Assembly: GCA_025210155.1 (NCBI GenBank)
Contig: JAOASE010000006.1
Span: forward strand, 170,939-234,938
Source: Alphaproteobacteria bacterium
GTDB lineage: Bacteria > Pseudomonadota > Alphaproteobacteria > Rs-D84 > CASDRH01
Reading direction: 5' to 3'
Length of the DNA: 64,000 nucleotides
Shown here one piece after another: positions 63,201-64,000 of this stretch. Numbering within the stretch: the first letter of the stretch is position 1; every line of letters begins with the position of its first letter. A program made the position numbers.

Positions 63201-64000
63201 TATCTTTATATTTTATTGGTTTCTAATAAAATGTTATTTGTTTGAAATTATTTTGTCAAGTGAAATAGTTATATAGAGGGTTTTTGAAATAAAAAAATGC
63301 CCATTAAGGACATATTTTTATATTTGGTTGCGGGGGCTGGATTTGAACCAACGACCTTCAGGTTATGAGGTAAATTTTCAATTAATTGTTATTTGTTGAT
63401 ATTTGTTGTTTTTTCTTTATTTTCTGCGGTTTTTCTTTGGATTTTTATTTTTATAAATTGATGTTATTTTATTTAAATTGTTGTTAATTGCGGAACTATT
63501 GCGGAACTTGTTTTTATTTTGTTTGAATTTTATTCTTGAAAAAATATTTATAAATAGATATGATATTTTTATAAATATTGAAAGGTAAATAGATATGGAA
63601 AAATTTATATTATATAATGATGTTAATTCAAATGTTAAAATTGATGTTAGGTTGGATGGAGAAACAGTATGGCTTACTCAAAAGCAGATGTCTGAGCTTT
63701 TTGATGTTGAGGTTAATACAATAAACTATCATGTTAAGGAAATTTTTAATTCTGAAGAATTATATGAGAATTCAACTATTCGAAAAATTGGAATAGTTCA
63801 ACTTGAGGGAAATCGAGAAGTTAAGAGAAATGTTGATTTTTACAACTTAGATATGATTATATCAGTTGGATATAGAGTGAATTCTAAGAGAGCTGTTTCT
63901 TTTCGTATTTGGGCTACGAATACTTTAAGGGAGTTTATTATAAAAGGTTTTGTTCTTGATGATGATAGGTTAAAAGGAAATTCTAAAGTTTTTGGAAAAG

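What the first reader, a model, noticed from the sequence alone, without database searches (positions are those of the whole stretch)
63325..64000. tRNA-Met(CAU) 3' fragment + exact tandem 11-mers + RhuM gene: right-hand window edge looks like the attR end of an integrated element
A 45-nt piece that is exactly the 3' half of a tRNA sits alone on the minus strand at 63325-63369. It has anticodon loop CTCATAA, T-arm GTTGG-TTCAAAT-CCAGC, acceptor 3' strand and CCA, but no 5' half. A partial 3' tRNA copy like this is the classic footprint of tyrosine-integrase elements that insert into a tRNA gene. The full gene then lies at the other end. The fragment's orientation places the element at coordinates >63369. 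That is where an exact tandem duplication ATTGCGGAACT-ATTGCGGAACT (63487-63508) and a RhuM-family gene (63595->end) are found. The rest of the element (integrase, cargo) is outside the window and could hold the system of interest.
Basis: partly seen in the sequence, partly recalled or inferred. Interest (0 to 1): 0.65.

Follow-up and report, generated by a model that had tools for sequence, protein, structure and literature searches.

The report
Genomic island inserted in initiator tRNA
The right edge of the window is one end of an ordinary 9.6-kb integrase-driven genomic island, with probable defence and toxin cargo, inserted in the initiator-methionine tRNA gene of an uncultured alphaproteobacterium.

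Summary

- **Fragment:** Window 63325-63369 (-) is an orphan 3' 45 nt of a tRNA(CAU) gene. The tRNA is of initiator (fMet) type.
- **Extension:** A public 1.05-Mb metagenome contig has 2 mismatches over the last 11.3 kb of the window and is identical over its last 7.4 kb. On that contig the intact tRNA gene lies 9.6 kb beyond the fragment. The shared direct repeat is 49 bp.
- **Island genes:** Between the repeats lie RhuM, a P4/CP4-type tyrosine integrase with all catalytic residues, a HEPN-like DUF4209 protein and an excisionase-like HTH protein. There is also a radical-SAM/SPASM gene, an outer-membrane barrel gene and several unknowns. No phage structural or conjugation genes were found.
- **Tandem 11-mers:** They recur as a second pair next to the intact tRNA. 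All six related integrases examined have an 11-mer pair at the fragment end, and the four relatives that reach the intact tRNA have one there too. The position is conserved but the sequence differs between integrases. They are therefore probably arm-type integrase binding sites.
- **Not shown:** No empty site and no circular junction was found, so current mobility is unproven.

This is a new member of a known kind, of modest interest.

The parts
63287..63313 (-). Intrinsic terminator (hairpin ATGTCC-TTAAT-GGGCAT plus T-run) directly downstream of the tRNA fragment. It is interpreted as the original terminator of the tRNA-fMet gene, left behind on the chromosomal side of the junction.
   Evidence: Terminator scan: 1 site found against 0.1 expected. 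The intact tRNA copy has a different, element-supplied terminator.
63321..63369 (-). 49-bp direct repeat forming the core of the fragment-side att junction (attR in the tRNA-island convention). It is the displaced 3' 45 nt of the tRNA-fMet gene (63325-63369) plus 4 nt past the CCA (63321-63324).
   Evidence: It is identical to L001 206-254, inside and just after the intact tRNA at L001 174-250. ARAGORN and Rfam score no tRNA here.
63370..63486 (.). AT-rich 117-bp spacer between the core and the arm sites. It holds several imperfect repeats of period 10-11 and 20, which could mean bent DNA or accessory-factor sites (inference only).
   Evidence: Tandem Repeats Finder rows 63386-63408, 63411-63445 and 63445-63486. 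Spacers of similar length (about 95-125 nt) occur in related and unrelated tRNA-fMet fragment loci.
63487..63508 (+). Exact tandem pair ATTGCGGAACT x2. These are probable arm-type binding sites for the integrase N-terminal domain, on the integrase-proximal arm.
   Evidence: One search shows the exact repeat. [quoted passage not shown] All six related integrases have an 11-mer pair at the fragment end, and the four that reach the intact tRNA have one there too. The sequence differs between integrases.
63536..63564 (+). Sigma-70-like promoter TTGAAA-17-TATGAT, 28 nt after the arm sites and 31 nt before the RhuM start. It is the candidate promoter of the RhuM-int-DUF4209 gene string.
   Evidence: Consensus scan, (10 of 12 matches). 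This is a pattern match only and function was not tested.
63595..64000 (+). 5' 135 codons of a 331-aa RhuM-family gene, the first gene of the element. Its stop overlaps the integrase start by 11 nt, beyond the window.
   Evidence: Pfam PF13310: E=4.9e-30 for the part in the window and E=2.3e-108 for the full length. PADLOC PDC-S05: E=8.5e-155. Gene layout.

Best explanation
Window 63321-64000 is one end of a 9.6-kb integrative genomic island in the initiator tRNA (tRNA-fMet) gene of an uncultured alphaproteobacterium.

**How it integrated (inferred from the anatomy).** The element's attP carried a copy of the last 45 nt of the tRNA plus 4 nt. Its P4/CP4-type tyrosine integrase recombined attP with the chromosomal gene, in or near the anticodon loop. 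The gene was rebuilt from the host 5' half and the element's 3' half, and an element-supplied terminator now follows it. The host's original 3' half and its terminator were displaced 9.6 kb away. That displaced piece is the orphan fragment at 63325-63369.

**The tandem 11-mers.** ATTGCGGAACT x2 and a matching pair at the tRNA-proximal end are most likely arm-type sites. The integrase N-terminal domain would bind them to assemble the recombination complex. The small HTH_17 protein is the likely excisionase or AlpA-type regulator.

**The cargo.** RhuM sits in a variable slot between the arm sites and int, and is probably co-transcribed with int. The rest of the cargo is:
- a HEPN-like DUF4209 protein;
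- three proteins of unknown function;
- a radical-SAM/SPASM enzyme;
- an outer-membrane beta-barrel protein.

**Shown:** the anatomy, the repeats, the intact integrase and the conserved family architecture.
**Inferred:** the direction of the exchange, the arm-site function, co-transcription, the defence or toxin role of the cargo, and present-day mobility.
For: **Extension and repeats**
- The near-identical contig has an intact tRNA-Met(CAT) at L001 174-250. The exact 45-mer occurs at L001 206-250 and at 9833-9877, which corresponds to window 63325-63369.
- The repeat is 49 bp, and each copy is followed by a different terminator.

**Integrase and excisionase**
- The integrase carries PF13356 Arm-DNA-bind_3 (E=7e-15) and PF00589 (E=5e-27).
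- R237, K262, H324, R327, H350 and Y359 are invariant in a 12-sequence alignment.
- Its N-terminal domain matches the CP4-like integrase N-domain structures 3jtz and 3rmp.
- The HTH_17 protein matches excisionase models: TIGR01764 (25.6 bits, below its 28.8-bit cut-off) and phrog_66.

**Chromosomal flanks**
- Housekeeping genes lie on both sides.

**Arm sites**
- AGTTCC occurs 5 times on one strand of the 10.1 kb scanned, against 1.4 expected. Four of the five lie in the two 11-bp-spaced pairs at the island ends.
- All six integrase relatives (57-69% identity) show the same start: fragment, then about 100-130 nt, then an 11-mer pair, then optional cargo, then int. Five also show an HTH_17 gene, and the sixth (L217) is too short to tell. 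The four that extend far enough end with a second 11-mer pair, a terminator and the intact tRNA-fMet.
- The 11-mer sequence differs between integrases.

**Crossover position**
- In L220 the intact tRNA and its fragment differ at two positions near the variable-loop/T-stem boundary. The crossover must therefore lie in GGCTCATAACCTGAAGG.

**tRNA-fMet as a common target**
- 32 of 130 occurrences of the 45-mer, in a capped metagenome scan plus a viral-contig scan, are orphan fragments. About half of the 24 orphan fragments examined have tandem 10-11-mers 86-125 nt away.
Against: - The sequence beyond position 64000 is not the window's own. It comes from a public contig with 2 mismatches in 11.3 kb, and from four further contigs identical to that contig over the junction or island.
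- No empty site was found. The exact 70-nt junction gave 0 hits in metagenome contigs.
- No circular attP junction was found in viral contigs. All five or six samples of this species carry the island, so recent mobility is not demonstrated.
- G+C content does not set the island apart: 0.18-0.35 inside against 0.25-0.35 in the flanks.
- A related strain (L211) has the tRNA-proximal half but lacks the whole mobility half and the fragment. This needs an extra deletion event to explain.
- Integrase binding to the 11-mers is inferred, not measured.
Confidence: 0.9

Rival explanations
1. The island is real but is now a fixed, no longer mobile resident on its way to decay. The att end in the window is a fossil junction rather than a working recombination site.
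For: - No empty site and no attP junction was found.
- Every sampled contig of this species carries the island.
- Related strain L211 has already lost the 412-aa gene, xis, the 268-aa gene, DUF4209, int, RhuM, the arm sites and the fragment. Its radical-SAM and outer-membrane-barrel genes are truncated and fused.
- No transfer genes were detected.
Against: - In the window's lineage the two 49-bp repeats are identical.
- The integrase ORF is full length with all catalytic residues.
- The excisionase-like gene and both arm-site pairs are intact, and the integrase-proximal pair is an exact repeat.
- The searches for junctions covered assembled contigs only, and such contigs rarely capture minority excised forms.
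Confidence: 0.4
2. Only the 6.1-kb mobility block is a mobile insertion. That block runs from the 412-aa gene through xis, the 268-aa gene, DUF4209, int and RhuM to the fragment. On this reading the radical-SAM, outer-membrane-barrel and 254-aa genes next to the tRNA are native chromosome, and the fragment is carried by the insert.
For: L211 has the tRNA 3' end, the small ORF, the 254-aa gene, radical-SAM and outer-membrane-barrel remnants, and then directly the 167-aa gene homologue and bcp. Nothing of the 6.1-kb block is present.
Against: - The breakpoints in L211 (about L001 3.6-3.84 kb and 9.93 kb) are not at att sequences. They remove the native terminator as well.
- L211 keeps the element-type terminator and the tRNA-proximal 11-mer pair CAGTTCCACAT-CAGTTCCTCAA unchanged. 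These match the integrase-proximal pair and have no reason to exist in native DNA.
- In the four relatives that reach the intact tRNA, the whole interval from fragment to tRNA is bounded by matching 11-mer pairs.
- The radical-SAM and outer-membrane-barrel genes in L211 are deleted and fused, which marks it as the derived, decayed state.
Confidence: 0.05
3. The element is a prophage, a phage satellite or a conjugative element rather than a simple island.
For: - The integrase matches phrog_1, and the HTH protein matches a phage excisionase PHROG.
- Six viral-collection contigs contain the same 45-mer.
Against: - It is only 9.6 kb long.
- No capsid, tail, terminase, primase, relaxase or type IV secretion match appeared in Pfam, PHROGs or NCBIfam for any of the 10 ORFs.
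- The best phage integrase is under 30% identical.
- There is no plasmid DNA match.
Confidence: 0.04
4. The 45-nt piece is a chance similarity, a decayed duplicate tRNA gene, or part of an intron-split or divergent tRNA, and is unrelated to site-specific recombination.
For: None beyond the bare existence of a partial tRNA.
Against: - It is a 49/49 match to the intact gene 9.6 kb away, with 0 of 100 shuffles giving any match.
- ARAGORN and Rfam find no tRNA or intron family here.
- An integrase and matched arm repeats lie between the two copies.
- The same layout occurs in six related loci.
Confidence: 0.01

Closest known systems
tRNA/tmRNA-targeting genomic islands as catalogued by Islander (Hudson, Lau & Williams 2015, cited in PMC12595487). 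The anticodon-loop sublocation class of Williams 2002 is cited from my own knowledge.
   Same: - An intact tRNA gene at one end and a displaced 3' tRNA fragment as a direct repeat at the other.
- A tyrosine integrase between them.
- The element restores the gene and supplies a terminator.
- The identity block starts at the anticodon loop, and the crossover is constrained to the anticodon loop and 3' stem.
   Different: - The target is the initiator tRNA-fMet in an uncultured, AT-rich alphaproteobacterium.
- The integrase lies at the fragment end rather than next to the intact tRNA, and this is consistent across the family.
- This particular island and host are not described in anything I could search.
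Small int + AlpA 'phage defence element' type islands at tmRNA/tRNA genes. Examples are Pseudomonas I23/I44/I55 and Vibrio phage defence elements (PMC12595487).
   Same: - A tyrosine integrase plus a small AlpA/excisionase-type HTH protein.
- Flanking direct repeats at a small-RNA gene.
- Variable cargo that matches defence or toxin families.
- No genes for autonomous transfer.
   Different: - A different target: tRNA-fMet with a 49-bp repeat, against tmRNA with a 14-bp repeat.
- A different integrase lineage.
- Defence function and helper-mediated transfer were shown experimentally for those elements, and nothing was tested here.
Lambda and P4/CP4-57 heterobivalent integrases with arm-type sites. 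This is established knowledge. Negative autoregulation of P4 int by Int binding near its promoter is recalled from memory and not checked here.
   Same: - An N-terminal arm-binding domain: PF13356, with a match to the CP4-like integrase N-domain structures 3jtz and 3rmp.
- Repeated short sites in both arms, one helical turn apart.
- Arm sites just upstream of the promoter that probably drives int.
   Different: - The site sequences are specific to this lineage.
- There are two sites per arm in direct orientation in both arms.
- A cargo gene (RhuM) sits between the arm sites and int.
- Binding and regulation are inferred only.
RhuM family (Pfam PF13310; PADLOC candidate PDC-S05). It was proposed as a toxin domain of multi-layer defence loci by Anantharaman et al. 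2013 (PMC3710099).
   Same: Full-length match: 361.7 bits against a 33.7-bit cut-off, and E=8.5e-155 to PDC-S05. It sits on a mobile island, like the original Salmonella SPI-3 gene.
   Different: Here it is wedged between the att arm sites and int, with its stop overlapping the int start. No restriction-modification or PrrC partner lies beside it. The function of the family remains untested.

Membership tests
tRNA-gene integrative genomic island (Islander-type definition) | Intact tRNA gene at one boundary | tested here: met
   ARAGORN calls tRNA-Met(CAT) at L001 174-250, which is L212 18373-18449. Rfam tRNA scores 62.5 bits. The gene is on a near-identical contig, outside the window.
tRNA-gene integrative genomic island (Islander-type definition) | Direct repeat of the 3' part of that tRNA at the other boundary, in the same orientation | tested here: met
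   The repeat is an exact 49 bp, L001 206-254 and 9833-9881, the latter being window 63321-63369.
tRNA-gene integrative genomic island (Islander-type definition) | Tyrosine (or serine) integrase gene between the repeats | tested here: met
   A 387-aa ORF at L001 7459-8622 carries PF00589 and PF13356. The catalytic residues R, K, H, R, H and Y are invariant.
tRNA-gene integrative genomic island (Islander-type definition) | Presence/absence polymorphism: an empty site in related genomes | tested here: inconclusive
   The exact 70-nt empty-site junction gave 0 hits in metagenome contigs. The nearest reference genomes are only 58-60% identical on a neighbouring protein and share no synteny. The one related strain found, L211, carries a decayed island rather than an empty site.
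tRNA-gene integrative genomic island (Islander-type definition) | Excision to a circular form (attP junction) | tested here: inconclusive
   The attP junction pattern gave 0 hits in viral contigs. The stand-alone 9638-nt island contig L213 ends 30 nt into the repeat at both ends, which is the behaviour expected of a k=31 assembler at a repeat (my inference about the assembler) and is not evidence of a circle.
Heterobivalent P4/CP4-type tyrosine integrase system | N-terminal arm-DNA-binding domain plus a C-terminal catalytic domain with R-K-H-R-H-Y | tested here: met
   PF13356 E=7.1e-15 and PF00589 E=4.8e-27. PDB 3jtz/3rmp CP4-like integrase N-domain, E=4e-6. Invariant R237, K262, H324, R327, H350 and Y359.
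Heterobivalent P4/CP4-type tyrosine integrase system | Arm-type repeats in both arms of attP, distinct from the core | tested here: met
   By sequence and comparison only. There are tandem 11-mer pairs at both island ends in the same orientation. All six relatives have a pair at a conserved distance from the fragment, and the four that reach the intact tRNA have a second pair there. The sequence varies between integrases, and similar pairs occur in unrelated tRNA-fMet fragment loci.
Heterobivalent P4/CP4-type tyrosine integrase system | Integrase physically binds the arm sites, and they are needed for recombination | not testable with these tools
   Needs gel-shift or footprinting assays and recombination assays.
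RhuM family (PF13310) | Profile match above the curated threshold | tested here: met
   105.1 bits for the part in the window and 361.7 bits for the full length, against a 33.7-bit cut-off.
Prophage or phage satellite | Virion, packaging, replication or capsid-hijack genes | tested here: not met
   PHROGs, Pfam and NCBIfam scans of all 10 ORFs hit only integrase, excisionase-type HTH and radical-SAM families. Three ORFs have no convincing match to any family, so a hidden function cannot be excluded.
Integrative conjugative or mobilizable element | Relaxase, coupling protein, type IV secretion genes or oriT | tested here: not met
   No such family matched in Pfam or NCBIfam. oriT was not searched.
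Phage-defence island (defence cargo) | Cargo shown to protect against phage | not testable with these tools
   There are annotation-level hints only: PADLOC candidates PDC-S05 (RhuM) and a C-terminal match to PDC-S39 (DUF4209/HEPN). Relatives carry type I R-M, Shedu SduA_C, Cap4 nuclease, AbiEi/Eii and a reverse transcriptase.

The most novel reading that the evidence does not exclude
The integrase family seen here may define a widespread, undescribed lineage of tRNA-fMet-specific islands in Alphaproteobacteria and neighbouring groups. More than 5000 homologues were found, and all six examined sit at a tRNA-fMet fragment.

In this lineage the short interval between the arm-type sites and the int start codon would serve as a dedicated cargo slot. 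Unrelated defence or toxin genes occupy it: RhuM here, Shedu plus Ea47 in one relative, and unknown genes in two others. The gene next to int overlaps the int start codon. The slot gene would then share the arm-site-adjacent promoter with int, so integrase occupancy of the arm sites could regulate both int and the cargo.
Probability: 0.25. Interest if true: 0.4.

Novelty: new member of a known kind. Interest (0 to 1): 0.3.

Why it matters
**Local value.** The result is mainly tidy annotation:
- It sets the island boundary in the window at 63369/63370.
- It explains the orphan tRNA piece and the exact 11-mer repeat.
- It shows that everything to the right of the boundary is accessory DNA.

**Wider value.** The initiator tRNA gene appears to be a busy integration hotspot. 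About a quarter of the 45-mer occurrences in a capped metagenome sample plus six viral contigs are orphan fragments. One conserved integrase lineage carries swappable defence-type cargo in poorly studied, partly host-associated Alphaproteobacteria: RhuM, a HEPN-like protein, type I R-M, Shedu, a Cap4 nuclease, AbiE and a reverse transcriptase.

**Possible use.** The pairs of integrase and 11-mer that vary together give a ready-made data set for studying arm-site specificity. The cargo slots are reasonable places to look for new defence genes.

None of this would surprise a specialist in mobile elements.

Tried and rejected
- **Complete or divergent tRNA, or an intron-split tRNA, at 63325-63400.** Rejected. 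ARAGORN and Rfam find nothing there.
- **A second copy of the 45-mer inside the window.** None at up to 3 mismatches. The partner lies outside the window.
- **Empty site by exact 70-nt junction in metagenome contigs.** 0 hits.
- **Empty site by synteny in species-representative genomes.** The closest relatives are only 58-60% identical on the MgsA-like ATPase and have no tRNA nearby.
- **Homologues of the flanking 167-aa protein.** Only two were found. One led to L211, a decayed island rather than an empty site.
- **Circular attP junction in viral contigs.** 0 hits.
- **The 9638-nt stand-alone island contig (L213) as evidence of excision.** Rejected. Its ends stop 30 nt into the repeat on both sides, as do the chromosomal contigs L210 and L002. 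This is the pattern expected of a k=31 assembler at a repeat, which is my inference about the assembler.
- **A degenerate third tRNA fragment inside the island, which would indicate tandem elements.** None was found by local alignment.
- **G+C contrast between island and chromosome.** Not informative.
- **Solved-structure sequence searches.** Nothing usable for the 412-aa protein, the DUF4209 protein or RhuM.
- **Close phage or plasmid relatives.** None.
- **Literature search for tRNA-fMet islands.** It returned only Sinorhizobium prophage papers in which tRNA-fMet is a phage-carried gene, not the integration target.
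Full report
**1.

On the minus strand, window 63325-63369 reads CTCATAACCTGAAGGTCGTTGGTTCAAATCCAGCCCCCGCAACCA. That is an anticodon loop with CAT, the 3' anticodon stem, variable loop, T arm, acceptor 3' strand, discriminator A and CCA. The bases on its 5' side (…GAAAATTTAC) cannot form a D arm or an acceptor 5' strand.

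- ARAGORN finds only tRNA-Gln and tRNA-Arg in the whole window.
- Rfam at E<=10 reports no tRNA hit here.
- The 45-mer is unique in the window, and no shuffle matches it.
- The tandem ATTGCGGAACT pair at 63487-63508 is exact.
- The ORF from 63595 matches Pfam RhuM (E=4.9e-30).
- A hairpin plus T-run lies directly 3' of the fragment at 63297-63313. This is the terminator one would expect behind a real tRNA gene.

**2. Extending past the window edge**

The 167-aa gene next to the fragment was looked up by exact protein sequence. It lies on a 1.05-Mb metagenome contig, JGI 3300039008 Ga0400167_219727. Locus L001 is that contig in reverse orientation, and L212 is the same contig in window orientation.

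The contig differs from the window at 2 positions over window 52698-64000, and at none after 56557. I use it as a proxy for the window's continuation, and this substitution is the main caveat of the report.

On the contig:
- ARAGORN finds an intact tRNA-Met(CAT) at L001 174-250.
- The 45-mer occurs exactly twice, inside that gene (206-250) and at 9833-9877, which is the window fragment.
- Comparing the flanks shows the identity runs 4 nt past the CCA, giving a 49-bp direct repeat. In window coordinates this is 63321-63369.
- The intact copy has a C1xA72 mismatch and an A11:U24 pair, read directly. It is therefore an initiator (fMet) tRNA.
- The intact copy is followed by a different terminator, AAGCCTTTGATTTTTCAAAGGTTTTTT.
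- Beyond the tRNA lie a Mur ligase and LspA. On the window side lie bcp, a PIF1-type helicase and an MgsA-like ATPase.

The 9.6 kb therefore sits between housekeeping genes.

**3. Contents of the island**

Reading inward from the window edge:

| Gene | Size | Main evidence |
|---|---|---|
| RhuM | 331 aa | PF13310 E=2e-108; PADLOC PDC-S05 |
| Tyrosine integrase | 387 aa | PF13356 Arm-DNA-bind_3 and PF00589 |
| DUF4209 protein | 332 aa | C-terminal match to PADLOC PDC-S39 |
| Unknown | 268 aa | no match |
| HTH_17 protein | 67 aa | excisionase models TIGR01764 (below its curated cut-off) and phrog_66 |
| Unknown, opposite strand | 412 aa | no significant match |
| Outer-membrane beta-barrel | 204 aa | PF13505 OMP_b-brl |
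| Radical-SAM/SPASM enzyme | 437 aa | nearest NCBIfam model is the FibroRumin maturase, 213 bits against a 400-bit cut-off, so it is not a member |
| Unknown | 254 aa | no match |
| Short Cys-rich ORF | 73 aa | no match |

- The RhuM stop overlaps the integrase start by 11 nt.
- The integrase has R237, K262, H324, R327, H350 and Y359 invariant among 12 homologues. Its N-terminal part matches the solved CP4-like integrase N-domains 3jtz and 3rmp.
- DUF4209 belongs to the HEPN superfamily according to PMC3710099. An Rx4H motif, RNRVYH, is present.
- No virion, replication, relaxase or secretion family matched. The best phage integrase is under 30% identical, and there is no plasmid DNA match.

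**4. What the tandem 11-mers are**

- Next to the intact tRNA, about 70 nt past its 3' end and after the element's terminator, lies a second pair with 11-bp spacing in the same orientation. It reads CAGTTCCACAT-CAGTTCCTCAA in L001.
- AGTTCC occurs five times on that strand in the 10.1 kb scanned, against 1.4 expected. Four of the five are in these two pairs.

I then looked at six relatives of the integrase, 57-69% identical, in their own contigs. All six show the same start:
- a tRNA-fMet 3' fragment;
- about 100-130 nt of spacer;
- a tandem 11-mer pair;
- nought to three cargo genes;
- int.

Five of the six also show an HTH_17 gene further in, and the sixth (L217) is too short to tell. The four whose contigs reach that far continue through cargo to a second 11-mer pair, a terminator hairpin and the intact tRNA-fMet.

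The 11-mer differs between lineages:
- ATTCGGCAAT(A/G) in L216, L218 and L219;
- ATGTAGCCCCG in L220;
- TGCGGCACCAG in L223.

The position and the pairing in both arms are conserved. Sites at a conserved position whose sequence differs between integrases are what arm-type sites of a heterobivalent integrase should look like. Roughly half of the 24 orphan tRNA-fMet fragments examined from other metagenome and viral contigs also have tandem 10-11-mers 86-125 nt away. Binding itself was not tested.

**5. Where the crossover lies**

- In the window's element the two repeat copies are identical, so they are uninformative.
- In L220 the rebuilt tRNA and the displaced fragment differ at two positions near the variable-loop/T-stem boundary. 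The identity block begins at G30.
- The exchange must therefore lie within GGCTCATAACCTGAAGG, the anticodon loop and its 3' stem.
- This agrees with the anticodon-loop class of tRNA integration sites (Williams 2002, from my own knowledge).
- In L218 the fragment carries an acceptor-stem substitution that the intact gene lacks. This is consistent with the fragment being the non-functional, displaced copy.

**6. Mobility is not shown**

- The exact empty-site junction gives no hit in metagenome contigs.
- The circular junction gives none in viral contigs.
- The closest species-representative genomes are Ca. Enterousia and ruminant-gut Alphaproteobacteria/Rickettsiales genomes assembled from metagenomes. 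They are only 58-60% identical on a neighbouring protein and are not syntenic.
- In one sequencing run the island assembled as its own 9638-nt contig. Its ends, and those of the chromosomal contigs, stop exactly 30 nt into the repeat. This is the pattern expected of a k=31 assembler at a repeat (my inference), and is not a circle.

**7. A decayed relative**

Contig L211 comes from another run and is about 97% identical in the cargo.
- It keeps the tRNA 3' end, the element terminator, the tRNA-proximal 11-mer pair, the small ORF and the 254-aa gene.
- Its radical-SAM gene is internally deleted and fused to the N-terminus of the outer-membrane barrel.
- Everything from just upstream of the 412-aa gene to just past the fragment and native terminator is missing.
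- The contig then continues into the promoter of the 167-aa gene.

L211 retains element-type features at the tRNA end, and its breakpoints are not at att sequences. I read it as an island that lost its mobility half by deletion, not as a pre-insertion state.

**8. Comparison with known systems**

- This is a textbook tRNA-gene island in the Islander sense.
- By gene content it belongs with the small int-plus-AlpA islands at tmRNA/tRNA genes. Those carry defence cargo, lack transfer genes and move with the help of phages (PMC12595487).
- RhuM has been proposed as a toxin domain of multi-layer defence loci (PMC3710099).
- Relatives of this island carry type I R-M, Shedu SduA_C with Ea47, a reverse transcriptase, a Cap4 nuclease and AbiEi/Eii. 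L218 and L219 share a core but differ in cargo at both ends.

The specific points here are the initiator-tRNA target, the integrase lying at the fragment end, and cargo inserted between the arm sites and int.

**9. Verdict**

- The element is a new member of a known kind.
- Confidence that this is the fragment-side junction of an integrase-mediated island is about 0.9.
- Whether the island is still mobile is roughly even odds.
- Interest is modest (0.3). The useful by-products are the integrase/arm-site pairs that vary together and the cargo slots.

Noticed in passing
L211 1-2800 (Logan SRR30515162_11529), compared with L001 223-10763: A related strain carries a decayed version of the island. 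The tRNA-proximal end (terminator, 11-mer pair, small ORF, 254-aa gene) is about 97% identical. The radical-SAM gene is internally deleted and fused to the N-terminus of the outer-membrane barrel. The whole 6.1-kb mobility half, the tRNA fragment and the native terminator are deleted.
   Followed up: yes
L001 3596-3770 (-), island intergenic region between the outer-membrane-barrel gene and the 412-aa gene (outside the window): This is a G+C-rich (about 52%) stretch in a 29% G+C genome. It gives a sub-threshold Rfam hit to sRNA-Xcc1, a family reported from integron cassettes and other mobile elements (37.7 bits against a gathering score of 53, E=8.5e-4). It folds much better than shuffles (z=-4.4) and ends in a terminator-like hairpin. 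It may be an island-borne small RNA. Most of it is absent from L211.
   Followed up: partly
L001 411-3565 (outside the window): A cargo block that may be a peptide-modification cluster. It holds a radical-SAM/SPASM enzyme (nearest model is the FibroRumin maturase, well below cut-off), a 254-aa unknown, an outer-membrane beta-barrel and a convergent 56-73-aa ORF with a CMACMC motif. Between strains the small ORF shows several amino-acid changes, an indel and a frameshifted end, so it may not be coding.
   Followed up: partly
L001 6477-7475 (-), directly after and overlapping the integrase stop (outside the window): A 332-aa protein has a C-terminal DUF4209 domain, which belongs to the HEPN superfamily. 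It carries an RNRVYH (Rx4H) motif and matches the C-terminus of PADLOC candidate PDC-S39. The slot after int is also variable in relatives (274 aa in L216, 487 aa in L218/L219).
   Followed up: partly
L218 7424-19257 compared with L219 7898-20983: Two closely related islands share the same flanks and the same core (int, 487-aa gene, two HTH_17 genes, a second integrase, a BPL_N protein). They differ in cargo at both ends. One has Shedu SduA_C plus Ea47 and two unknowns. The other has three unknowns plus a reverse transcriptase and small ORFs. This is cargo swapping within a single island backbone.
   Followed up: partly
32 of 130 occurrences are orphan fragments with no 5' half. About half of the 24 examined have tandem 10-11-mers 86-125 nt away, including TTGTCCGCAGT/TTGTCCGCAAT in L209, which resembles the motif here. 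The initiator tRNA gene looks like a common integration hotspot.
   Followed up: partly
window 62698-63201 (-), compared with L211 2016-2534: The 167-aa signal-peptide protein next to the junction is only 51% identical between the two strains. The divergence is concentrated in its N-terminal half, while its promoter, its C-terminus and the neighbouring bcp gene are 88-100% identical at the DNA level. Only two homologues exist in a 5.8-billion-protein search. It appears to be a fast-evolving, lineage-specific secreted protein.
   Followed up: no
window 63386-63531: The spacer between the att core and the RhuM promoter is full of imperfect AT-rich repeats of period 10-11 and 20 (Tandem Repeats Finder rows). 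This might reflect intrinsically bent DNA or sites for an accessory bending protein, as in other attP arms.
   Followed up: no
L220 9805-9851 compared with 17792-17868; L218 7410-7456 compared with 19181-19257: In relatives the displaced fragment and the rebuilt tRNA are not identical. L220 differs at two positions near the variable-loop/T-stem boundary, and L218 at one acceptor-stem position. This confines the crossover to the anticodon loop and 3' stem, and it shows the fragment copy drifting.
   Followed up: partly
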